Shown: positions 1 through 39,587 of the stretch, one piece after another
Layout of the letters: each line of letters opens with the position of its first letter
Position numbering within the stretch: position 1 is the stretch's first letter
IMG/VR virus record: IMGVR_UViG_2531839448_000006
DNA length: 41,535 bases
Source of the DNA: a virus
Lineage: Duplodnaviria; Heunggongvirae; Uroviricota; Caudoviricetes
Direction: 5' to 3' (one strand)
Program-made: the position numbers and the translations under genes
Notes under the pieces: model-generated
Databases searched by the model: none
What the model saw: the letters and a program-made list of their open reading frames with translations, nothing else
What the model was told of the DNA's origin: nothing

Positions 1-774
1 TTACAACTTAAAGAGTTTCGCTTGCCCTGGATTAACAGCTTCGACGTAGTTTTTGACCCCTATTCTGTGCGGCTCATAATTGCTTGAATAGAAATCAATC
101 AGGAAGTCACTCATTTTCTGAGATGTGACTTTCATAACTCCCTTACTCAAAGTTAAATTAAACACGCTAATCTTTGACGATGGTGCCTGAGTTTTACTCA
201 TGTTGGCTTGATAACCAGATTTGCGCATTGCCACTAGTGCTTCGTCGTAAGCCGCTTGTAATTGGGCCAAATCGTTTGACGAGATGATCACATCATCCAT
301 AAACACACTTAGCTTGAGATCATGATGTTTGTTCAATCGGCGTAGTAAGCTACCAAAATAACTTTTATCTAAGCAGAGGGTTGCAAGTATTGGAGATTGA
401 ACAAAACCAAAAGGGAGGACATGCTTATGTGGACTATGGGACAAGTTTCTTACAGTTGAAAATGTTGAGATTTCCCGCGCTTGAGAATAGGTGAAGTAGC
501 TCTTTAGATCACGGGTGATACGACTACGGCTCGTTGACTGAAAAAATTGTTTAATATCAACAACGGCAAAAAAATCACTTTTTAAGTGTAATCTGGCAGC
601 TTTAAGATGCCCACCAGTTCTTAGATGGTAAAAATAGAGTGGCGGAATCCACTTGTTTCTGACAGCCTGAAGTATCTTCCCTCCGACTTTACGTGCCTCA
701 ACGCTTGGGACATAAACCCAAACCCCGGGCTTAATCTCAAATTTATCTTCCCACCTTTGAACTTCTATTGTCAT
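1..774 (-). CDS. Reverse transcriptase-domain protein, compact (257 aa)
   Basis: Translation shows RT motif A (FFAVVDIKQFF), motif B (LPFGFVQSPILATL) and motif C (FMDD, DD codons near 292-297). ATG at 772-774 with an in-frame stop one codon upstream; stop codon at 1-3, so 257 aa is full length in this sequence. Motif spacing resembles retron-type RTs but no VTG motif seen. Confidence 0.75.
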   Translation of the reverse strand: MTIEVQRWEDKFEIKPGVWVYVPSVEARKVGGKILQAVRNKWIPPLYFYHLRTGGHLKAARLHLKSDFFAVVDIKQFFQSTSRSRITRDLKSYFTYSQAREISTFSTVRNLSHSPHKHVLPFGFVQSPILATLCLDKSYFGSLLRRLNKHHDLKLSVFMDDVIISSNDLAQLQAAYDEALVAMRKSGYQANMSKTQAPSSKISVFNLTLSKGVMKVTSQKMSDFLIDFYSSNYEPHRIGVKNYVEAVNPGQAKLFKL

Positions 775-1099: not shown

Positions 1100-2438
1100 C
1101 ATAAGCGCTAACTTAAGGGTTGTGGTATTACGCCTGATATGATTTAACGTGCCGATGAATTACTCTCACGATAACTGGTCAGCAATTCTGGCCCATATTG
1201 GTAAGCCCGAAGAACTGGATACTTCGGCACGTAATGCCGGGGCTCTAACCCGCCGCCGCGAAATTCGTGATGCTGCAACTCTGCTACGTCTGGGGCTGGC
1301 TTACGGCCCCGGGGGGATGTCATTACGTGAAGTCACTGCATGGGCTCAGCTCCATGACGTTGCAACATTATCTGACGTGGCTCTCCTGAAGCGGCTGCGG
1401 AATGCCGCCGACTGGTTTGGCATACTTGCCGCACAAACACTTGCTGTACGCGCCGCAGTTACGGGTTGTACAAGCGGAAAGAGATTGCGTCTTGTCGATG
1501 GAACAGCAATCAGTGCGCCCGGGGGCGGCAGCGCTGAATGGCGACTACATATGGGATATGATCCTCATACCTGTCAGTTCACTGATTTTGAGCTAACCGA
1601 CAGCAGAGACGCTGAACGGCTGGACCGATTTGCGCAAACGGCAGACGAGATACGCATTGCTGACCGGGGATTCGGTTCGCGTCCCGAATGTATCCGCTCA
1701 CTTGCTTTTGGAGAAGCTGATTATATCGTCCGGGTTCACTGGCGAGGATTGCGCTGGTTAACTGCAGAAGGAATGCGCTTTGACATGATGGGTTTTCTGC
1801 GCGGGCTGGATTGCGGTAAGAACGGTGAAACCACTGTAATGATAGGCAATTCAGGTAATAAAAAAGCCGGAGCTCCCTTTCCGGCACGTCTCATTGCCGT
1901 ATCACTTCCTCCCGAAAAAGCATTAATCAGTAAAACCCGACTGCTCAGCGAGAATCGTCGAAAAGGACGAGTAGTTCAGGCGGAAACGCTGGAAGCAGCG
2001 GGCCATGTGCTATTGCTAACATCATTACCGGAAGATGAATATTCAGCAGAGCAAGTGGCTGATTGTTACCGTCTGCGATGGCAAATTGAACTGGCTTTTA
2101 AGCGGCTCAAAAGTTTGCTGCACCTGGATGCTTTGCGTGCAAAGGAACCTGAACTCGCGAAAGCGTGGATATTTGCTAATCTACTCGCCGCATTTTTAAT
2201 TGACGACATAATCCAGCCATCGCTGGATTTCCCCCCCAGAAGTGCCGGATCCGAAAAGAAGAACTAACTCGTTGTGGAGAATAACAAAAATGGTCATCTG
2301 GAGCTTACAGGTGGCCATTCGTGGGACAGTATCCCTGACAGCCTACAAAACGCAATTGAAGAACGCGAGGCATCGTCTTAACGAGGCACCGAGGCGTCGC
2401 ATTCTTCAGATGGTTCAACCCTTAAGTTAGCGCTTATG
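1100..2438 (+). mobile_element. IS186 (IS4 family) insertion sequence, intact
   Basis: Perfect 23-bp terminal inverted repeats CATAAGCGCTAACTTAAGGGTTG at 1100-1122 and 2416-2438 (reverse complement). Flanking 10-bp direct repeat GGATAAATCC at 1090-1099 and 2439-2448 (target-site duplication). Element length about 1.34 kb, single transposase ORF. Confidence 0.9.
1155..2267 (+). CDS. insL: IS186 transposase
   Basis: 372-aa ORF (track 1149..2267, GTG at 1149; ATG at 1155) recognised from memory as the IS186/IS4-family transposase (MNYSHDNWSAILAHIGKPEEL...). Confidence 0.9.
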   Translation: MNYSHDNWSAILAHIGKPEELDTSARNAGALTRRREIRDAATLLRLGLAYGPGGMSLREVTAWAQLHDVATLSDVALLKRLRNAADWFGILAAQTLAVRAAVTGCTSGKRLRLVDGTAISAPGGGSAEWRLHMGYDPHTCQFTDFELTDSRDAERLDRFAQTADEIRIADRGFGSRPECIRSLAFGEADYIVRVHWRGLRWLTAEGMRFDMMGFLRGLDCGKNGETTVMIGNSGNKKAGAPFPARLIAVSLPPEKALISKTRLLSENRRKGRVVQAETLEAAGHVLLLTSLPEDEYSAEQVADCYRLRWQIELAFKRLKSLLHLDALRAKEPELAKAWIFANLLAAFLIDDIIQPSLDFPPRSAGSEKKN

Positions 2439-3936: not shown

Positions 3937-4418
3937 GACAGCAGCCCTCCCACCGTTTTACTGATATCACTTAAGGCAGATGTTGCCGTGTCCTGCAGAT
4001 TATTCAGCTGCGTACTGAGATCACCGAACATATCGGACAGGGATTCATCCACCCGTTTGAGCGACAGGGTGAACTCAATCCGGCGCGGCATACCGTCGCG
4101 GAAAAACTCCGTTTTAGTCAGATTCAGTCCCTCAATCACATACATGCCGTAAATCGTGCCGCTGCCTTCAATCAGGGGCCATGCTTTTCCCTGTTCTGCC
4201 ATCTGCTCCAGAGCCAGCAACGACAGCCTGCCGCCCGTTATCTCCGGCATAAGAACACCAGAAAGCGTCAGCATGTCGTTGTCCGGTCCCAGAAACTGCG
4301 TGGACGGACGACGGTTTACCCGGCTGTTTGCCGCATGTCGCCAGCTGCGTTGATACTGCAGTTCCTGATACGGAACGGTGCGCAGCATAAACACGTACAA
4401 TCCCAGCACCATCATCAT
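3933..4418 (-). CDS. U: Tail protein U
   Basis: 161 aa, P2 gpU-like; overlaps D start and T stop by 4 nt. Confidence 0.85.
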   Translation of the reverse strand: MMMVLGLYVFMLRTVPYQELQYQRSWRHAANSRVNRRPSTQFLGPDNDMLTLSGVLMPEITGGRLSLLALEQMAEQGKAWPLIEGSGTIYGMYVIEGLNLTKTEFFRDGMPRRIEFTLSLKRVDESLSDMFGDLSTQLNNLQDTATSALSDISKTVGGLLS

Positions 4419-23544: not shown

Positions 23545-24066
23545 TCAGTTAATCAGTTTATTTAATGACTTAGACCACTTCTGTCCCAAATCATCAATAT
23601 CAAAATCACCATCTCGCTGCTGCCATTTAAAAACTAAGGCTATAAGTTCACTCTTGAGGATTCTTTTATAATAATCCTTAGATTTTAATTGCTCAAGTAT
23701 ATGTTCACCAACCTCAGCAAGCTTTCTATGATTTAATTCTGACAGATCTCGATGCAAATGGTTAACTGATTTATACAAAGTATTTCCTTCAGTACGAGAA
23801 ATATCAATACCTTTATCTTCAAACCATTGTGAATCAAGCCAAACCAAATCTATCGTAGCTGGCTCTGACATCGTGGTGGCAAGGGCAACAATAATTTTCT
23901 CTACCGATTCATCTTGAAAATCGATAGAGTCAGAAACCCAAACTGACAAGGTGTTATTAGAGGTCCTTGTGCAACCTGTTATCGCGTCTGCGGATATATT
24001 GTCAGGTGCTCTACCTTTATTACATTCCCATTTACTATGGGATATTTTACGCAATAAATATGTCAT
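23545..24066 (-). CDS. Hypothetical protein, third gene of AT-rich three-gene accessory operon
   Basis: 173-aa ORF; ATG overlaps upstream stop (TAATG) indicating translational coupling; no motif recognisable by eye; AT-rich versus prophage core. Confidence 0.6.
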   Translation of the reverse strand: MTYLLRKISHSKWECNKGRAPDNISADAITGCTRTSNNTLSVWVSDSIDFQDESVEKIIVALATTMSEPATIDLVWLDSQWFEDKGIDISRTEGNTLYKSVNHLHRDLSELNHRKLAEVGEHILEQLKSKDYYKRILKSELIALVFKWQQRDGDFDIDDLGQKWSKSLNKLIN

Positions 24067-24713
24067 TATAGACTTCTCAAATATCCTATAACTGCTTCTT
24101 TATATTCTTCCACCCAATCAGCATCAAATTTCCTCATTCTTTCAAGGACTGGAATAAATGATTTTTCCCCCCAAGACTCAACTGCACGGATCGCTGCCTC
24201 AAATATAAGTTCATTCTCAAGAGAACAAACTCCCATAATCATAGCGTCAGCTTTATTACCTAACCATTCATATTCAATAGTCGATGCAAAATTAATGAAG
24301 TTCTTTACATGTTGATCATTCATTCTGTACAATTGTACCCATGTCCTTTGAAAGGACTCTTGGAATAAATCCTGATTTTTATCATACAAGAACTCCATGT
24401 AAATCTGTGTCTTGCTTATCTCGCCTTCAATGTAATCTTCTGAACATGTTAACTCAATTAGTCTAGAGGTACATTTTGAAACCTGAATTTCAAAGTTCTG
24501 CTTAGTTGACGAACCTTGATTTATTGACTCAGTCTCTAATTGAAAGCCACCATTTGTTTTGCTATGTGACAGCTCATTTCTTTTAATATCAGCGTAAATG
24601 ATATTGTTACCATCATAATAATCAGAAAATGCACCTATTGAACTTACCCCATTTTTAAACTTAGGTAAGCCAAAAGGCTTTTCATCACTTATTATAAAAC
24701 TATTCTTTACCAT
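24066..24713 (-). CDS. Hypothetical protein, second gene of three-gene accessory operon
   Basis: 215-aa ORF starting 10 nt after the upstream stop with GGTGA just upstream of the ATG; no recognisable motif. Confidence 0.6.
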   Translation of the reverse strand: MVKNSFIISDEKPFGLPKFKNGVSSIGAFSDYYDGNNIIYADIKRNELSHSKTNGGFQLETESINQGSSTKQNFEIQVSKCTSRLIELTCSEDYIEGEISKTQIYMEFLYDKNQDLFQESFQRTWVQLYRMNDQHVKNFINFASTIEYEWLGNKADAMIMGVCSLENELIFEAAIRAVESWGEKSFIPVLERMRKFDADWVEEYKEAVIGYLRSL

Positions 24714-24722
24714 AGCATCACC

Positions 24723-25418
24723 TTACAGAGAAGTGTAGCGTTGTAAATTATCAATAGTTTTAAGATTGTCCTGACACAATAACTCTAGCACGCGGATATA
24801 TTCATCCCAACCAAACCGCATATATCCATTTTGAGGAAGAGTATTAGTATCAGTTTCAAATAATACGCAATCACTTGGCATACCATTATTCAAAAATGGA
24901 GCTGAAATTTCAGCGCGTCTAATTGTACTAATACTATTAATTTCTTCCTGATACTCTTCAATATTTTTCCTTACAGCTATACGATTGTCCCACTCAAATG
25001 GATTAACACCTTTATAGGTAAACAAAGCATTGTAAAGCGAAAAGTAAACAGATTCATCCCCTTGATAGATACGTGAATTCAGAACAGCTATCCTATTTCC
25101 TTTTTTCATCGGAAATACGTTTTGTAGTTCCCTAGATATAGATAGAACCATTTCTGAAAACGCTTGAGGTTCCCCCCCCAAACCATTAAAAATGATTCCA
25201 TGGCTAGGAAACTCGACTCTTACTGTTTGATTGGTATCTACCATGATAAGAATTTGCTTTTTCTCACCAGTGATGGCATTAATCTCCTGACCAAAAGTAG
25301 GTACAAATCCAAATTTTCCAATCTTATCAAGCATAGATCCAATAGTTAGTGTATTTGGAACTATATCATTATTATTTGTGAAAAAATTAATCTGATGCGT
25401 CTGTTCAATCAATTTCAT
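24723..25418 (-). CDS. Hypothetical protein, first gene of three-gene accessory operon
   Basis: 231-aa ORF with strong RBS (AAGGAG, 5-nt spacer) before ATG at 25416-25418; no recognisable motif. Confidence 0.6.
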   Translation of the reverse strand: MKLIEQTHQINFFTNNNDIVPNTLTIGSMLDKIGKFGFVPTFGQEINAITGEKKQILIMVDTNQTVRVEFPSHGIIFNGLGGEPQAFSEMVLSISRELQNVFPMKKGNRIAVLNSRIYQGDESVYFSLYNALFTYKGVNPFEWDNRIAVRKNIEEYQEEINSISTIRRAEISAPFLNNGMPSDCVLFETDTNTLPQNGYMRFGWDEYIRVLELLCQDNLKTIDNLQRYTSL

Positions 25419-32470: not shown

Positions 32471-33487
32471 ATGACTGTCAGAAAACAGCCAAACGGCAAA
32501 TGGTTGTGTGAGTGCTATCCCAATGGACGCAATGGCAAGCGCGTGCGTAAGCAATTTGCTACGAAAGGAGAAGCCATTGCTTTTGAAAGCTTCACAATGG
32601 AAGAAGTGAATAAAAAACCGTGGCTAGGTGAAAAGGATGATCGGCGACGCCTATCAGAATTAATTGAGCTTTGGTATTCCCTGTATGGCCAGACACTCGC
32701 AGACCCCAAGCGCCTCATGGCGAAACTTAGAATTATCTGTAATGGTCTAGGCGACCCCATCGCCTCAGAACTGACAGCCGGTGACTTTACAAAATACCGC
32801 GAAGCACGGTTAAAAGGCGACGTTCGTAACGAAGACGGCACACTAATGTCGCCAGTAAAACCACGCACGGTGAATCTTGAGCAACGTAACCTATCATCGG
32901 TTTTCGGCACATTGAAAAAACTAGGCCACTGGTCAGCACCAAATCCTCTCGCCGGGCTGCCAACATTTAAAATCGCTGAGGGGGAACTGGCGTTCCTGAC
33001 CTCGGAAGAAATTAAACGTCTGCTAGATGCCTGCGCTGATTCTCAAAACCCCAGTCTGCTTTTGATTGCAAAAATATGCCTGGCCACCGGCGCACGCTGG
33101 AGTGAAGCCGAAAACCTGCAGGGCCATCAGTTATCTAAATACCGCATCACTTATACCAAGACGAAGGGCAAGAAAAACCGCACCGTGCCGATATCTCAAG
33201 ATCTGTATGACGAACTCCCCAAGAACAGAGGGAAGCTATTCACCCCGTGCAGAAAAGCCTTTGAACGGGCAGTAAAGCGAGCTGGCATCGAGCTGCCAGA
33301 GGGCCAATGCACTCACGTGCTACGTCATACATTCGCCAGTCATTTTATGATGAATGGCGGAAACATACTGGTCCTACGCGATATTCTGGGCCATGCCGAT
33401 ATAAAAATGACGATGATTTACGCCCACTTTTCGCCGGATCATCTTGAAGATGCAGTTACTAAAAACCCTTTATGCAACTTAAGATAG
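32471..33487 (+). CDS. int: Tyrosine integrase
   Basis: 338 aa; C-terminal catalytic region with R...HxxRH...Y pattern (VLRHTFASHF...MIYAHF); position after the repressor as in P2/186. Confidence 0.9.
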   Translation: MTVRKQPNGKWLCECYPNGRNGKRVRKQFATKGEAIAFESFTMEEVNKKPWLGEKDDRRRLSELIELWYSLYGQTLADPKRLMAKLRIICNGLGDPIASELTAGDFTKYREARLKGDVRNEDGTLMSPVKPRTVNLEQRNLSSVFGTLKKLGHWSAPNPLAGLPTFKIAEGELAFLTSEEIKRLLDACADSQNPSLLLIAKICLATGARWSEAENLQGHQLSKYRITYTKTKGKKNRTVPISQDLYDELPKNRGKLFTPCRKAFERAVKRAGIELPEGQCTHVLRHTFASHFMMNGGNILVLRDILGHADIKMTMIYAHFSPDHLEDAVTKNPLCNLR

Positions 33488-33801
33488 AGTAACTTATGAA
33501 AATAAACTCAAATTATTTACAAATATAATATTCAGCAGGTTATCCATTCTTATTTAACTCTTCAGACTGAGATTAGATTTTATTTATAGAATAAGATAAT
33601 TTCATATCACAAAAAACCTGTAAGCCCTCATCTTTGTTGTATAAAAACATAAAAGATGCCATATTTAAAAAAGTAGAAAAGCATTGCAATGCAACATTAA
33701 AAATAAACCAATAAAAACCAGTCATTAGAAAGTGAAAAAAAACAAAAACATTTTTTATCAAAGCTTCAGTCTGACTACTAGTTGGACTCTGCAATTAACT
33801 A

Positions 33802-33833
33802 TCAAGATGATCAATATTTATTGATCATCTTGA
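33802..33833. repeat. Perfect 32-bp palindrome carrying two GATC sites
   Basis: TCAAGATGATCAATATTTATTGATCATCTTGA: 14-bp arms with a 4-nt centre, 33 bp downstream of the kinase-deaminase stop codon; not followed by a T-run on either strand. Confidence 0.6.
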
Positions 33834-33865
33834 AGTTGCCCTCAGGAAAGATGAGTATAATATTT

Positions 33866-35608
33866 CTACTCAAGAAGATATTCTAACTCATCTTTTATCG
33901 GGATAACTTGCTCATAAAGTCGGTGATATGACTTCCCAATTGCGCCTCTGAATTGTATTAACTTTGGTGGCTTGTTACCTATATTAATAATATGGTCTTG
34001 AGCTATACCTGGGTAGGGATCAATAAATACAATTTCAGATATACCTAACTGATAAGCTTTTTTCGCACACAGCTCACAGGGACTGGCAGTTGTATATAAC
34101 CTCCCCCCCTGAACGCCAATGCCACCATATTTTGCAAGTTGTAAAAATGCGTTTTCCTCAGCATGTAATGCACGTGTATGAACTTGATTACCTTTTTTAT
34201 CTTTATCAAGATCATTATGTATATCTTTAAAACAATAAGATAAGTTCCTGCCTCTATAAATATCACCAGTTTTATCTATCGCCCTAAAATTTAATAGTTT
34301 CTCATTAGCTTTAATTCTGAAAGAACTATTATTTCTCTCATAATGACTGTACACTTTTTCATCAAAGTCGTTCATTAGGCCATCTAGCGATCTCATAGAG
34401 CAAGGAATCTGACCGTTGGCGACATCATTCCAACCCACTGATTTTATTGAATTTTCACCATCAGTTACTACAGCTCCCACCTGTCTAGATATACAACCAG
34501 AGTTTAATTTTACCGTATACGCAACTTGCATAACCCTTTCCATTGCAGTAGGTGTTATCAGACCAGGATGCTTCATCAGTGCGATGTACCACGCTAATTG
34601 TGCTTTTAAAATATTGTCATTATCAAATTCATTTTTTGGGTTAAAAATGTGTATATCTGATAGTTCAATGCATTTAGTTACATTTGGATTAGTGAGATGT
34701 TTGTAAGAGTTATCACCTTTACCTGACTCTACAGAATCTATTTCCTCTATCTGCTTTTCAGAAAACTTATGTAGTTTCCGCAAATAGTTTGTTCGATGTT
34801 CATCTGGGGCATTTATTGACATTAAATGAAATGCAGAATATCTATCCTTAAAAAATTTTGCTTCATATGGATTTCTAATAGCATCTATGACAATTAATGC
34901 GTTATCTCTTTTGCTTTTTCTTATTAATTTAATAACCCTATTAATAGTTTCCGGCAAATGAAAAACAGATTTAGGTATAAACTCTTTATCTTCAAAATCG
35001 ACTTCAATACGCCCACGGCGTCTAATTGACTTACCTGCTAACTGATAGACTGAAACATATAAATTTGAGTTTATCGCATTTAGTTCAGCTTTGAATTCCT
35101 TAGTAAATTTTCTAACTAACCTCAAAATTGATATAAATTTATTAATCGTTTTTTCATTAAGCTTCAATTCACTATTATGATCAAGCAAATTCTCAATTAC
35201 ATTTTTAAATCTTGTTAAAATGAGATTATCTGAAAATACACCAAAAGTTAATACATTATCTAAATGCTCTTTACTGATAGATTTATTAGATGATAGAATA
35301 AACTCAGAAGCTTCTTCAACTGTTAACATCAAAAGATACGCTGAGATTAGGTCACTCACCTTAATTGAGTAAAAATTTTCCCAGTGATTTTCTGCGAATT
35401 TTTTAACTATATTATAACGATGGACATCCAATCCCTTGTAAAAACCCTGTAATTTACTTACATCAGGGAAGACTGTTTTTTCGTTTTCAAGAATATTAGC
35501 TGTTGTTGTGCAACCAGAACCAGTTCGACCTGTCAAACCGACTAAAATAAACTGCCCATTTTCAAGGAAAAGCTCACTAACGAATTTTTTTCTTTCATCA
35601 CGTCCCAC
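33866..35608 (-). CDS. P-loop NTPase/kinase-like plus cytidine/dCMP-deaminase fusion protein (dCTP-deaminase-type defence candidate)
   Basis: 580 aa; N-terminal glycine-rich P-loop-like motif GLTGRTGSGCTT; C-terminal zinc-deaminase signature HAEENA ... PCELC about 30 residues apart; AT-rich gene. Confidence 0.65.
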   Translation of the reverse strand: MGRDERKKFVSELFLENGQFILVGLTGRTGSGCTTTANILENEKTVFPDVSKLQGFYKGLDVHRYNIVKKFAENHWENFYSIKVSDLISAYLLMLTVEEASEFILSSNKSISKEHLDNVLTFGVFSDNLILTRFKNVIENLLDHNSELKLNEKTINKFISILRLVRKFTKEFKAELNAINSNLYVSVYQLAGKSIRRRGRIEVDFEDKEFIPKSVFHLPETINRVIKLIRKSKRDNALIVIDAIRNPYEAKFFKDRYSAFHLMSINAPDEHRTNYLRKLHKFSEKQIEEIDSVESGKGDNSYKHLTNPNVTKCIELSDIHIFNPKNEFDNDNILKAQLAWYIALMKHPGLITPTAMERVMQVAYTVKLNSGCISRQVGAVVTDGENSIKSVGWNDVANGQIPCSMRSLDGLMNDFDEKVYSHYERNNSSFRIKANEKLLNFRAIDKTGDIYRGRNLSYCFKDIHNDLDKDKKGNQVHTRALHAEENAFLQLAKYGGIGVQGGRLYTTASPCELCAKKAYQLGISEIVFIDPYPGIAQDHIINIGNKPPKLIQFRGAIGKSYHRLYEQVIPIKDELEYLLE

Positions 35609-35793
35609 TTATGAATGTAAGAATATTCAACATATTAATTATAATTTATTAACTCATTTTGTTCTAGATACTTGATGTAATGGCGGCACTTTGGCGACGG
35701 AGCATTAAAAACGCGTAAGACGAGCAAATACAACAAAACACTAACACATTGTTTTTAAATATAAATAGCTGTTTTTACTATACTAAAAATGGT

Positions 35794-35831
35794 ATGTAGG
35801 AATTTCGGACGCGGGTTCAACTCCCGCCAGC
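35794..35831 (+). other. 38-bp remnant of the tmRNA (ssrA) 3-prime end (att-site-like island boundary)
   Basis: ATGTAGGAATTTCGGACGCGGGTTCAACTCCCGCCAGC matches the 3-prime region of E. coli ssrA as I recall it, lacking the terminal TCCACCA and all upstream tmRNA sequence. Confidence 0.6.
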
Positions 35832-35963
35832 CAATCATGATTGGACGGTATAAGGACAACACCAATAAAAACAGTAAGTTAGCAGTCTCAGCAGGACACC
35901 GACCAGACGGTGAAGAGACATAAAAGGATACGCAAAGGAGCCGCGGCTCCTGGTGACATGAAA

Positions 35964-35993: not shown

Positions 35994-38900
35994 TCAGAAC
36001 GACCAGTTCACACCAGCTACCCCGTTCCACGGGGATTCCACACCGGCACCATGGCTATACCCCACCCCAAGATGCCCGCTTAACGTACTGCTGAATGAGG
36101 CTTTAATACCTGCCTGGTATATTCCACGTCTGCCCGACAAATCATTGACGAAATTACCGTCACTATTCACTTTCACCCGGTTATCATCGACAAATTCTTT
36201 GCGCACAGCCGCCTTCAGCCACGGCTCAACTTCCATACCGTTCCCCAGACGCATGTTGTAACTCAGCGTTGCACCCAGTTCACGATATAAACTGCGGGTA
36301 TCGACTGATTTCGATTCCATGCCATTGGATAAATGATATTCAGGGTTATCAGCGGTGAACCCCCGTTAACGATGCATACGGCGTCAGGTTCCAGTTACCA
36401 TCGGTAAATCGCATCCCGGTTTCAATGTGACCGCCCAGCCCGTAGCTGCGATAACTGCCGTTGGCGGCTCCACCGCTGCCAACCGTGGAGTCGCGAGCTT
36501 CGGTACCTGCTAATACCAATAAATTACCGCCATTTTCCAGCAACATATTGGTCGCTAAATTGCCGGAAATGGAAAAAGTGCCGTACTGGTGAGTACCGCT
36601 GATTTCAATACCGTTAGCCGTGCTCGTCTGGAGAGCGGCACCGCTGTTCTGGACGATATCTGTCGCTTTGCCATTATCGTTAACTGTCAGCGTACCGCCT
36701 TCATTGATCTTTGTTTTTATTGCCTCTCCGTTAGCTGAAACTGTTTGTATTCCGCCGTCGTTAATCGTTGTCTCATTCGCCACCCCCTCGACGATTTGTT
36801 CGCCGCCGGTGAGCGTCGTGCCTGTCGCAGTGGCTTTTGTTTTGACGATCTCCCGTCCGCCCGTATTGACCTGTGTTTTGTCAGAAGAGGTGTCTGACTC
36901 CACGGTTAACACGCCGCCATTTGCCAGCAGGATATTGTTCGCCGCACCCTGCTCGATGCTGAACGCGACGCCATCCGCGCGTGTTCCTGTGACCCGCGTC
37001 GCCCTGGTGGTTGCAACCAAAGCGCCCTGGCTACTCTGCTGTATCCCCGTTGCGCTGCCTTTCTCCCGCACATCGAGTGTGCCGCCGTCATTAAGCACCG
37101 AGTTTTCAGCCAGACCGCCCTCATTAACTACCTGTGAACACCCATTAATAATGGAACCTTCCGCTATCCCGTTTGCCATAATTTGTTGTAGGCCAGAGAC
37201 GATATCGGTATTGATCGCCTTACCATAATTCTGAACGGTTTGTGTGCCGCCATTGATGTGCGTTTTGTCAGTTGACCCACCATCAACAATTTGTTCACCA
37301 CTTTCAATATTTGCCTCAGTGGCTAAACCATATACCGTTTGCTTGCCACCTTTGATATTTGCTTTATCAGAAGTGGCACTGGCATATATTGTTTGGGTGC
37401 CAGCACTATTAAGTACAGTGCCAACATCTTTTCCATAAACATCCATTTTGCCGTTGGCATTAATAATCGTATCAACTGCCCGGGAACCAGTGACGACTGT
37501 TAATGAGCCAGCGTTTTCCAGCACTACATTTTTAGCTTCTGAATTCCTGATGTAGAAAGCATCACCATAACTGTTGGTTCCTTCGATAAGGGTTCCGGAA
37601 GTTGTGGAAGCAATTAATGCGCCGCCGGATTGTTGCTCAACATGCTTAGCCTCACCACCGTCCTGAACCTCCAGAACGCCACCATTATTAAGTCTGGTGG
37701 TATCTGTTTTAGCCTCCTTCTGGACAATCAGCTTACCGCCAGCATCAACGGTAGTATTTTTCGCCGAGGTTTTAGCCACTACCGTCAGTTCGCCGGTATT
37801 TTCCAGCACAACATAATTAGCCTCCCCTCCGGTAATAGTGAAGTGAGAGAGCTTGTTGTATCCTTCAATATCAGTCCCTGCGCCCGTGTTGGCAACTAAA
37901 GCACTGCCCGTCTCCTGGTTAACCCCATGTGCAATACCGCCGGTATAGACAATCAGCGAGCCTCCGGCGCTAATATTGCTGCCAATTGCCGTACCATCTT
38001 TCTCAACAACTTGCTGGCTCCCGGAGGATATAATTGTTGTGTCAGCTTTCCCACCGCTTTTGATATTTTGCGTTCCGCTGTTGATATTGGTGCCTGTGGC
38101 TATGCCATAATTATTAAGATTCTGTGTGCCACCATTAATTATGGTATTTGTCGCGTTTCCTGCAACATCCATAACCCCGCCATTATCTATTCGGGTCGCA
38201 TCAGCTTTAGCATTCGTTAAAACTGACATTGTTCCTTTATCTTTAATAATCGTCTTGTTTGCGGAATGAGATACTTCTAAATGGCCTCCATTTTCCAGCA
38301 ACACATTGTCTTCCACTTTATTGTGGATGGAGAATGCACCTTCACTATTCGTACCGCTCACCGTCGTACCGTTAGTGTTTGTTTTTAAAATTGCACCATC
38401 GTGCTGGGTAACATTTGTTGCCGTACCACCACTAACATCAAGCACGCCACCGGAATAAACTTCAATAACATCCGAGGTGCTGGTGTTATTAACAATTTGC
38501 GTGCCACCAGAATAGATCTGCGTAATTTTTGCCGTTGACTTACTATTCAGAGACTGAGTTCCGCCTTCAATCGTCGTGTCCAGCGCACGGCTCTCATATA
38601 CTCTTTGCTCACCGCCATTTTTAATGGTTGTTGTTTCTACTGTGCTCTGTTCAACATACTGTCGACCACCATTTATGGTTGTGTTCGTTGCCAGACTTCC
38701 TTGTACTACGTCCTGAGAGCCAGACTTATTTATCGTTGTACCATCAGCATGCCCTTGAACTTTTACTATCTGGCTACCACCATCAATGAGTATTCCATTC
38801 GCACTCCCTCCCTCTACGCGTGAAGCACCGCCCTTAATTGTCGTTCCATTGCTGATACCCCCTTTATAAACGTCCTGATTGCCACTCTCGATTGTCGTAC

Positions 38901-39249
38901 CTGTGGAAATACCCCCGTCATGAATTGACTGTCTGCCACCGTTAATGGTTGTATTATTAGCCTGCCCCACAAAATTGTTATGACTTCCTATATCTTGATA
39001 TCCACCAGATTCAATAAGACTTCCATTAGATACCCCGCCATGAACATTCTGCTGGCCATGGTTGATAATATGAGTGTTATTTGTTGTACCTCGTTCATCC
39101 ACTTTTTGGTTGCCATCTACAGTCTCATCGTTTACCACACCAATAACATCAGGAGTGAAGGCCGCCATACCGGGCGGGGCATATATCAAGGCAGATATCA
39201 ATAAGGAAAGTACTGAGCGGCGACAATAATGGGGACTGGTCCTGTTCAT
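35994..39249 (-). pseudogene. Autotransporter adhesin, disrupted (reading frame breaks at about 36,320-36,349; beta-domain shortened)
   Basis: Passenger ORF 36349..39378 (likely start MNRTSPHY at 39247-39249 with signal peptide) is rich in T/G/N/S repeats. A separate-frame 108-aa ORF 35994..36320 ends in the classic outer-membrane beta-barrel terminus ...GVNWSF. Combined translocator region is only about 150 aa. Confidence 0.6.
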
Positions 39250-39587
39250 AAATTTCATCCTCTGAAAAGTGAATACTGAGTAGCGTTTAAGCGACCTTAG
39301 CTCTGCTGCAACATCAGCCCACAGGCACCAGACCAGGGGATTCATCCTGAAGAGACAGCGCAAGTGTATTGTGTTCACCGCTCATCAAAGACATCATGAT
39401 GAAATGATGATATTCCACATAAGAAAGAAGCATTTTTTAAACGCAGTGCGCTGAAGTATGGTTGGATAAAAAAGTCAATCTATTCAGGGAATACGGGGGT
39501 ATTCTTTTCTTTCGACAATCAGGTCGTCGGCAAAATAAAATGATTTACATAATCGTTTCTGATGAATATCTTCTGCTCACATAAAAA

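What the first reader, a model, noticed from the sequence alone, without database searches (positions are those of the whole stretch)
33866..35608. Kinase-like/deaminase fusion gene between int and a tmRNA-type att remnant, matching the architecture of nucleotide-depleting dCTP-deaminase defence proteins
The 580-aa protein pairs an N-terminal P-loop-like glycine-rich motif (GLTGRTGSGCTT, with Cys where Walker A usually has Lys) with a C-terminal zinc-deaminase signature (HAE ... PCxxC). That domain combination is what has been described for anti-phage dCTP deaminases that deplete dCTP during infection. The gene is AT-rich, sits in an AT-rich 2.3-kb segment between the integrase stop and the ssrA 3-prime remnant, and is followed by a 32-bp perfect palindrome.
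Basis: partly seen in the sequence, partly recalled or inferred. Interest (0 to 1): 0.6.

Follow-up and report, generated by a model that had tools for sequence, protein, structure and literature searches.

The report
Known anti-phage dCTP deaminase gene
This gene encodes an already catalogued bacterial antiviral enzyme that starves infecting phages of the DNA building block dCTP; it rides as cargo at the end of a P2/186-like prophage, and a one-base deletion near its start probably weakens or silences this copy.

Summary
The open frame 33866-35608 (-) encodes a two-domain protein: a P-loop/kinase-like N-terminal domain and a zinc deaminase C-terminal domain. It scores above the curated cutoff of NCBIfam NF041025 "anti-phage dCTP deaminase" and hits PADLOC "dCTPase" at E = 4e-145. 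It is 71.8% identical over its full length to the E. coli AW1.7 enzyme that Tal et al. characterised. The unusual Cys in the Walker-A-like motif is invariant in the family and essential in AW1.7 (C30A).

RefSeq already names both this exact protein (WP_000532184.1) and its common form (WP_000660070.1) "anti-phage dCTP deaminase". The gene sits in the integrase-att cargo slot of a 186/P2-like prophage integrated in ssrA, and that slot has been published as a minor P2 defence hotspot.

New details:
- The window has an A7 run where the common allele has A8.
- Only 82 nt upstream are cassette-specific. The rest is the attP arm with integrase-type repeats, and no AvcI-like RNA is detectable.
- The "perfect palindrome" is a conserved 15+2+15 hairpin built partly from a relic of an int 3' end.

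Verdict: already known; low interest.

The parts
33866..35608 (-). Open reading frame of the anti-phage dCTP deaminase (AvcD family). It is 580 aa as an open frame from GTG 35608. The canonical gene in the A8 allele runs 33866-35598.
35596..35598 (-). Canonical ATG start codon, preceded by the Shine-Dalgarno-like TAAGTGGGA. It is out of frame in this window and would give an 18-aa peptide.
   Evidence: The leader block CATAAGTGGGACGTGATG is invariant in relatives.
35585..35591 (-). A7 homopolymer at codons 3-5. It is A8 in the 577-aa form seen on 468 contigs. The -1 difference shifts the frame.
35504..35539 (-). P-loop-like motif GLTGRTGSGCTT, with Cys at the Walker-A Lys position.
   Evidence: Invariant in 16 homologs down to 58% identity. 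G29A and C30A abolish defence in AW1.7.
34025..34543 (-). Zinc-dependent dCMP/cytidine deaminase domain. It includes HAE (34157-34165) and PCELC (34067-34081).
   Evidence: Pfam PF00383; PDB sequence hits to the dCMP deaminases 1VQ2 and 4P9C; fold hits to dCMP deaminases; motifs invariant.
35599..35680 (-). Cassette-specific leader of 82 nt, with a -10-like TATAAT at 35638-35643 and the SD. It is too short for a V. cholerae-type AvcI.
   Evidence: Boundary from alignment A4. Conserved blocks. No RNA structure signal. The promoter scan found nothing above its threshold here.
35681..35793 (.). attP arm shared with prophages that carry other cargo. It contains the direct repeats TGGCGGCA (35681-35688) and TGGCGACG (35692-35699), which are probably integrase arm-type sites.
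   Evidence: Conserved in ZYS9073, JX21CE8 and TW10598. The same repeat lies on the other arm next to ssrA in CV839-06.
35794..35833 (+). ssrA 3' fragment (attR core), nt 319-356 of ssrA. It lacks the TCCAC of the 3' end found in relatives.
33802..33833 (.). Inverted repeat (15+2+15) 33 nt downstream of the stop codon. The hairpin is conserved and has no U-tract on either strand.
   Evidence: A compensatory change is seen in the Citrobacter and Siccibacter relatives. The terminator scan does not call it.
33823..33839 (+). Relic of an integrase 3' end (GATCATCTTGAAGTTGC; compare int 33437-33453). It forms the right-hand arm of the hairpin on the + strand.
   Evidence: Repeat D3. In L015 and L012 the same position is the actual or relic int 3' coding end.
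32471..33487 (+). 186/P2-type tyrosine integrase, convergent with the deaminase gene.

Best explanation
The gene encodes a member of the anti-phage dCTP deaminase family (DefenseFinder/PADLOC 'dCTP deaminase'; AvcD of the AvcID system). It is carried as a moron in the integrase-attP cargo slot of a 186/P2-like prophage integrated in ssrA.

Mechanism, inferred from characterised homologs:
- The enzyme is made constitutively but held inactive. In AvcID systems a labile small RNA does this.
- When an infecting lytic phage shuts off host transcription, the enzyme is released.
- It deaminates dCTP (and dCMP) to deoxyuridine nucleotides, empties the dC pool and stalls phage DNA replication.
- Both the P-loop/kinase-like N-domain (G29, C30) and the zinc deaminase site are needed.

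Shown here: family membership, conservation of all critical residues, the genomic setting and the cassette boundaries. Inferred: enzymatic activity, the trigger and the phage range.

In this particular sequence a -1 change (A7 for A8) in codons 3-5 disconnects the SD-served ATG from the reading frame, so expression of the full-length protein is probably strongly reduced.
For: - PADLOC dCTPase E = 4.1e-145. NCBIfam NF041025 equivalog 423.6 bits, above the cutoff of 400. phrog_8118 1330 bits. Pfam deaminase domain.
- With the A-run restored the protein is 100% identical to WP_000660070.1 and 71.8% identical to the AW1.7 enzyme. The exact 580-aa form is WP_000532184.1, which carries the same name.
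- Mutagenesis and dCTP depletion are published for AW1.7, and T7 escapers map to gp5.7. The AvcI/AvcD mechanism and the transcription-shutoff trigger are published.
- GLTGRTGSGCTT, C369, C400, HAEEN and PCELC are invariant in 16 homologs.
- The setting is a prophage int-att slot that holds different cargo in other genomes. It is published as a P2 defence hotspot.
- Divergent alleles of the same gene occupy the same slot in other E. coli strains, Citrobacter and Siccibacter.
Against: - No biochemical or phage data exist for this allele.
- The window's A7 run puts the canonical ATG out of frame. The only in-frame start is a GTG lying inside the SD, with no SD of its own.
- No AvcI-like RNA is detectable. 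Only 82 nt of cassette-specific leader exist, with no structure or covariation signal, and there is no Rfam hit.
- The kinase-like fold of the N-domain could not be confirmed independently. The structure model was poor and the profile search against the PDB was empty.
Confidence: 0.9

Rival explanations
1. This copy is a frameshift-silenced (pseudogene-like) allele. The A7 tract leaves the ribosome-binding site feeding an 18-aa peptide, so the prophage in this strain no longer provides dCTP-deaminase defence. This concerns the state of this copy, not the identity of the gene.
For: - A7 here and in L028-L032, against A8 in the form found on 468 contigs.
- The GTG at 35608 lies within the SD-like TAAGTGGGA and has no SD of its own (sequence).
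- Another strain, ETEC1731, carries a different 1-nt deletion that truncates the protein at 517 aa. This suggests the gene is inactivated recurrently.
Against: - The whole 1.7-kb frame downstream is intact and identical to the functional-looking allele, so any loss is recent.
- Low-level initiation at the GTG, or transcriptional or translational slippage on the A-run, could restore some protein.
- The 2011-12 draft assemblies may carry homopolymer errors. However, the same A7 is seen in a later SRA run on a different haplotype.
Confidence: 0.45
2. The locus is a full AvcID-type type III toxin-antitoxin pair. Its RNA antitoxin would be encoded in the ~200 nt between the ssrA core and the ATG, so it would overlap the attP arm.
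For: - In V. cholerae, V. parahaemolyticus, P. mirabilis and ETEC H10407 an RNA encoded immediately 5' on the same strand inhibits the enzyme. These RNAs share no sequence similarity.
- A review states that the dCTP deaminase is 'safeguarded by a small RNA'.
- The leader has conserved blocks among close relatives.
Against: - The distal 115 nt are shared with prophages that carry unrelated cargo. Their TGGCGGCA repeats recur on the other att arm, so they are recombination sites.
- Only 82 nt are cassette-specific, against a 152-174 nt minimum for AvcI.
- The fold is no more stable than shuffles (z = +1.34). The covariation term is +0.31. No promoter-like site is called upstream.
Confidence: 0.2
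3. It is a housekeeping or phage-metabolic dCMP deaminase (ComEB or T4 Cd-like) that supplies dUMP for thymidylate synthesis.
For: The C-terminal domain matches dCMP deaminases. phrog_174 'dCMP deaminase' gives E = 1.9e-24.
Against: - ComEB TIGR02571 scores 37 bits against a cutoff of 219.
- These matches cover only the C-terminal third. The 345-aa N-domain is family-specific.
- The gene is accessory: 44 of 5,426 complete E. coli genomes carry a homolog. It is AT-rich and sits in a variable prophage cargo slot.
Confidence: 0.02

Closest known systems
E. coli AW1.7 anti-phage dCTP deaminase (Tal et al., bioRxiv 10.1101/2021.04.26.441389; Nat Microbiol 2022)
   Same: - 71.8% identity over the full length, 577 vs 576 aa.
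- The same GSGC motif, with G29 and C30.
- The same conserved Cys, HAE and PCxxC residues.
- The same NCBIfam equivalog name.
   Different: - AW1.7's gene lies in a P4-like satellite at tRNA-Phe, with a 524-nt upstream region next to a divergent integrase.
- Here the gene lies in a 186/P2-like prophage at ssrA, with only 82 nt of own leader and convergent with int.
- This allele has the A7 frameshift.
AvcID (DcdV/DifV) of Vibrio cholerae and relatives (Hsueh, Severin et al.; bioRxiv 10.1101/2021.03.31.437871; PMC10511110)
   Same: - The same two-domain architecture: P-loop kinase-like domain plus dCMP-deaminase domain.
- A Walker A that naturally lacks Lys.
- The expected trigger is host transcription shutoff.
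   Different: - Vibrio has Ser52 where this clade has Cys30.
- AvcI RNA (at least 152-174 nt, 5' of the gene, same strand) is defined there and not detectable here.
- The ETEC H10407 homolog tested there is too divergent to appear at 65% DNA identity or above.
Stand-alone dCMP deaminases (T4 Cd 1VQ2, human DCTD 2W4L, S-TIM5 4P9C, PBCV-1 bi-DCD 7FH4)
   Same: Zinc deaminase core with HAE and PCxxC.
   Different: These proteins are 130-190 aa, have no N-terminal P-loop domain and serve metabolic roles. The matches cover only residues ~356-533 here.
Integrase-att defence hotspot of P2-like phages (PMC13586616, NAR 2026)
   Same: The cargo gene lies between int and att of a P2-family prophage. The slot is variable among genomes.
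   Different: That paper reports the slot as holding 3% of P2 defence systems. The phrase 'dCTP deaminase' does not occur in its main text. Its supplements were not checked.

Membership tests
Anti-phage dCTP deaminase (NCBIfam NF041025 / PADLOC dCTPase / AvcD) | Scores above the curated family profile threshold over the full length. | tested here: met
   NF041025 423.6 bits against a cutoff of 400, profile positions 1-437 of 437. PADLOC PDLC02373 E = 4.1e-145.
Anti-phage dCTP deaminase (NCBIfam NF041025 / PADLOC dCTPase / AvcD) | C-terminal zinc-dependent deaminase domain with catalytic HAE and PCxxC, plus the Cys residues mutated by Tal et al. | tested here: met
   PF00383 E = 1.3e-14. H479/A480/E481, C508/C511, C369 and C400 are invariant. 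C370A and C401A are lethal to defence in AW1.7.
Anti-phage dCTP deaminase (NCBIfam NF041025 / PADLOC dCTPase / AvcD) | N-terminal nucleotide-binding (P-loop/kinase-like) motif with a non-Lys residue; G29 and C30 are essential. | tested here: met
   GLTGRTGSGCTT is invariant. G29A and C30A abolish defence in AW1.7. S52K inactivates V. cholerae AvcD.
Anti-phage dCTP deaminase (NCBIfam NF041025 / PADLOC dCTPase / AvcD) | The N-terminal domain adopts a P-loop kinase fold. | tested here: inconclusive
   Only weak HMM hits: AAA_18 E = 0.041, TIGR00152 E = 0.039, phrog_139 E = 0.007. The AlphaFold model has pLDDT 58.5. No kinase fold match was found. The N-domain profile search against the PDB was empty.
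Anti-phage dCTP deaminase (NCBIfam NF041025 / PADLOC dCTPase / AvcD) | Accessory gene located in mobile elements or defence hotspots. | tested here: met
   A homolog is present in 44 of 5,426 complete E. coli genomes. The prophage int-att slot holds variable cargo. The hotspot is published.
Anti-phage dCTP deaminase (NCBIfam NF041025 / PADLOC dCTPase / AvcD) | Depletes dCTP on phage infection and reduces phage plating. | not testable with these tools
   Needs LC-MS and plaque assays. Shown only for homologs.
AvcID type III toxin-antitoxin system | A small RNA antitoxin (AvcI, at least ~152 nt) encoded immediately 5' of the deaminase on the same strand and co-transcribed. | tested here: inconclusive
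   Only 82 nt of cassette-specific leader; the rest is attP arm. No structure or covariation. No Rfam match. AvcI RNAs have no conserved sequence, so absence cannot be proven in silico.
Housekeeping dCMP deaminase / ComEB | Reaches the ComEB (TIGR02571) equivalog cutoff; single-domain protein of ~150-190 aa. | tested here: not met
   37.1 bits against a cutoff of 219.45. The match covers residues 478-532 only, and the protein is 577 aa.

The most novel reading that the evidence does not exclude
Two readings are not excluded.
1. The A7/A8 homopolymer in codons 3-5 is a slippage-prone on/off switch for a potentially autotoxic nucleotide-depleting defence gene. A7 occurs on at least two haplotypes, and the nearest A8 genome differs from the window by only 2 SNPs over 4.6 kb.
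2. This prophage-borne clade works without a classical 5' AvcI RNA, because only 82 nt of its own sequence precede the ATG. It would then be controlled differently, for example through its position against the attP arm.
Probability: 0.1. Interest if true: 0.4.

Novelty: already known. Interest (0 to 1): 0.12.

Why it matters
It matters little beyond correct annotation. The family, its mechanism, this exact protein's name in RefSeq, and even the integrase-att cargo slot of P2-like phages have all been published.

The useful points are practical:
- Automated ORF calling gives a misleading GTG start, because this allele carries a -1 homopolymer change that probably silences the gene.
- The sequence upstream of the gene is mostly the attP arm. 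This limits where an antitoxin RNA could lie in this clade.

The same prophage also carries three uncharacterised AT-rich genes in the classical gpA-gpQ hotspot. These are a better lead for new biology than the flagged gene.

Tried and rejected
- ARAGORN and Rfam (gathering thresholds) found no tmRNA or other RNA family in the window. The intact ssrA lies just outside the left edge.
Encoding-contig look-ups replaced it.
- I tested the leader for an AvcI-like RNA by single-sequence fold (z = +1.34) and RNAalifold on four relatives (covariation term +0.31). Neither gave support.
- The consensus promoter/terminator scan called nothing in the leader or at the hairpin. The -10-like TATAAT at 35638-35643 is my own reading and is weak evidence.
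- The AlphaFold2 model from a 16-sequence alignment was poor (pLDDT 58.5). Foldseek against the PDB recovered only dCMP deaminases, at E about 2.5e-3.
- An N-domain profile search against PDB sequences gave only chance hits.
- The 208-aa ORF that lies between int and the deaminase in relatives has no Pfam or PADLOC family and no counterpart in the window.
- I first suspected that ETEC1731 shared the A7 allele. It does not: it has A8 and a different deletion.
- The two Nature Microbiology papers themselves are not held. Their preprints were used instead.

Full report
OBSERVATION

The minus-strand ORF 33866..35608 (580 aa) exists. It encodes GLTGRTGSGCTT at 35504-35539, HAE at 34157-34165 and PCELC at 34067-34081. 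The region 33.5-35.5 kb has GC 0.30-0.34, against about 0.55 in the neighbouring prophage structural genes. A 186/P2-type integrase ends at 33487. A fragment 100% identical to nt 319-356 of an annotated ssrA lies at 35794-35831, and it is the only such copy in the window.

The "32-bp perfect palindrome" is 33802-33833. It has 15-nt perfect arms around a non-symmetric TT. As RNA it forms a 14-bp stem with a 4-nt loop, -24 kcal/mol, z = -3.6.

IDENTITY

- PADLOC's dCTPase model matches at E = 4.1e-145.
- NCBIfam NF041025 "anti-phage dCTP deaminase" (equivalog) gives 423.6 bits against a cutoff of 400, over the whole profile.
- phrog_8118 gives 1330 bits.
- Pfam finds the dCMP/cytidine deaminase domain at residues 356-528.
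- More than 4,700 homologs exist, many of them named "anti-phage dCTP deaminase".
- The cassette is present at 96% identity or more in 20 of 5,426 complete E. coli genomes, and PGAP already gives it that name. Any homolog at roughly 65% DNA identity or more is present in 44 genomes.

After correcting the A-run (see below) the protein is 100% identical to WP_000660070.1. It is 71.8% identical over its full length to the E. coli AW1.7 protein.

The Tal et al. preprint shows the following for the 576-aa AW1.7 protein:
- It defends against several phages and eliminates dCTP during infection.
- G29A/C30A in the kinase-like motif and C370A/C401A abolish defence.
- T7 escapers map to gp5.7, an inhibitor of host RNA polymerase.

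In my alignment of 16 homologs down to 58% identity, the motif GLTGRTGSGCTT, C369, C400, HAEEN and PCELC are all invariant. In V. cholerae AvcD the equivalent residue is Ser52, and S52K inactivates the protein.

No structure of the full-length family is in the PDB by sequence. Only dCMP deaminases match, and only over the C-terminal domain.

MECHANISM (by homology)

AvcD-type enzymes are present but inhibited in uninfected cells. In AvcID systems a labile RNA, AvcI, is encoded immediately 5' on the same strand, binds the enzyme and inhibits it. Transcription shutoff by rifampicin or phage leads to AvcI decay, enzyme activation and loss of dCTP/dCMP. Nothing in the window contradicts this for the protein itself.

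START CODON AND FRAMESHIFT

In CV839-06 the gene starts ATG AAA GAA AAA AAA TTC (MKEKKF..., 577 aa) and is preceded by TAAGTGGGA. The window has seven A's instead of eight at 35585-35591. That ATG (35598) therefore leads to an 18-aa peptide. The long frame stays open only back to a GTG (35608) that lies inside the Shine-Dalgarno-like sequence.

The 577-aa form is on 468 contigs. The window's exact 580-aa form (WP_000532184.1, also named "anti-phage dCTP deaminase") is on a handful. The window is 100% identical over 4.6 kb to AFEB01000045.1. A7 also occurs in a Logan assembly that differs at 11 positions, whereas the closest A8 genome differs at only 2. A7 is therefore probably a real allele that may have arisen more than once.

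ETEC1731 has A8 but a different 1-nt deletion, which truncates the protein at 517 aa. I rate substantial loss of expression in this copy at about 45%.

CASSETTE ANATOMY AND CONTEXT

The window is a 186/P2-like prophage. In window order it reads: RT gene, IS, ogr, gpD, tail genes, lysis genes, capsid genes, terminase and portal, gpA-gpQ hotspot, gpA, dam, CII, apl/Rha, CI, int, deaminase, attR. In CV839-06 the intact ssrA and smpB lie just beyond the window's left end. The prophage is therefore integrated in ssrA, and 35794-35831 is attR.

Aligning the upstream region with prophages of the same int type gives a clear boundary. These prophages carry either other cargo (ZYS9073) or divergent deaminase alleles (JX21CE8, TW10598). 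Conservation starts at about 35681 and runs to the core. That stretch contains the direct repeats TGGCGGCA and TGGCGACG about one helical turn apart. The same repeat pair occurs on the other side of the core, next to ssrA, in CV839-06. This is the expected pattern for integrase arm-type sites, but that assignment is an inference. Only 82 nt (35599-35680) are specific to the deaminase cassette.

This leader shows no RNA structure signal (z = +1.34). RNAalifold on four relatives gives a covariation term of +0.31. V. cholerae AvcI needs 152-174 nt. An AvcI equivalent is therefore neither found nor excluded.

Downstream, the hairpin is conserved in the Citrobacter, Siccibacter and metagenomic relatives, with a compensatory change (GATGATC/GATCATC against GATGACC/GGTCATC). 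One of its arms is a 17-nt copy of the int 3' coding end (33437-33453 and 33823-33839). In L015 the deaminase stop lies 6 nt from the int stop, and the same sequence there is the real int end. The hairpin has no U-tract on either strand and the terminator scan does not call it. I read it as a junction scar that may also act as an RNA 3'-end or insulator structure between the convergent genes. This is an inference.

Many relatives carry an extra 208-aa ORF of no known family between int and the deaminase. The window has 379 bp of AT-rich sequence there instead.

IS THE LOCATION NEW?

No. 185 of 5,426 complete genomes carry this int type. All five loci I sampled that lack the deaminase carry other, unannotated cargo in the same slot. 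[quoted passage not shown] The AW1.7 allele and P0013-type alleles sit next to P4-like satellite integrases.

WHAT COULD NOT BE CONFIRMED

The kinase-like fold of the N-domain could not be confirmed:
- The HMM hits are weak (AAA_18 E = 0.041, dephospho-CoA kinase E = 0.039, dNMP kinase PHROG E = 0.007).
- The AlphaFold model was poor (pLDDT 58.5).
- Foldseek returned only dCMP deaminases.
- An N-domain profile found nothing in PDB sequences.

VERDICT

Interest is low. The residual points of interest are the A7/A8 start-region polymorphism and the lack of room for a classical AvcI RNA.

Noticed in passing
window 23545-25418 (-): Three abutting, co-oriented AT-rich ORFs (173, 215 and 231 aa; GC about 0.34) lie in the classical P2 gpA-gpQ (old/tin) defence hotspot, between the portal gene and the DinI/gpA genes. 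None has a Pfam or PADLOC hit, and CV839-06 annotates them as hypothetical. This is a candidate uncharacterised three-gene defence system.
   Followed up: partly
window 1-774 (-) and 1149-2267 (+): A short (257-aa) reverse-transcriptase-domain protein lies in the ogr-attL cargo slot. Its hits are RVT_1 at 2e-21 and, at best, PADLOC retron RT_VI at 6.6e-18. An IS transposase (DDE_Tnp_1) lies between it and ogr in the window but is absent from CV839-06. Both prophage ends therefore carry defence-type cargo.
   Followed up: partly
window 35681-35699 (+); L023 ~4360-4400: The direct repeats TGGCGGCA / TGGCG(A/G)C(G/A), about 11 nt apart, are found on both sides of the ssrA core (attR arm here, attL arm in CV839-06). 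They are conserved across prophages with different cargo and are probably integrase arm-type binding sites.
   Followed up: partly
window 35832-35833: The attR ssrA fragment lacks the 5 nt TCCAC of the ssrA 3' end. These are present in JX21CE8, ZYS9073, TW10598 and Citrobacter (CCAGC|CAATCATG against CCAGCTCCACCAATCATG).
   Followed up: no
window 35994-39378 (-): The autotransporter adhesin ypjA/ehaD next to attR is split into a 108-aa beta-barrel ORF (35994-36320) and a 1009-aa ORF (36349-39378). CV839-06 and ETEC1731 annotate it as a pseudogene.
   Followed up: no
L009 5872-6498, L016 4874-5500, L017 2099-2737, L012 6035-6661: A 208-212-aa ORF of unknown family often lies between int and the deaminase in Citrobacter, Siccibacter and metagenomic relatives. 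It has no Pfam hit apart from a weak HNH-like hit in L012, and no PADLOC hit. It is absent from the window, which has only a 73-aa ORF at 33573-33794.
   Followed up: partly
L022 631-3007; L024 5014-6075; L025 5026-6010; L026 5028-5696; L027 5022-6080: Other E. coli prophages with the same int type carry different unannotated genes in the int-att slot (375+397, 353, 182+154, 222 and 352 aa). The two ZYS9073 proteins have no PADLOC hit, and the others were not scanned.
   Followed up: partly
L018 (ETEC1731) gene position ~1492: An independent 1-nt deletion truncates the same deaminase at 517 aa in strain ETEC1731. PGAP then names it only 'deoxycytidylate deaminase'. This hints that the gene is inactivated recurrently.
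   Followed up: partly
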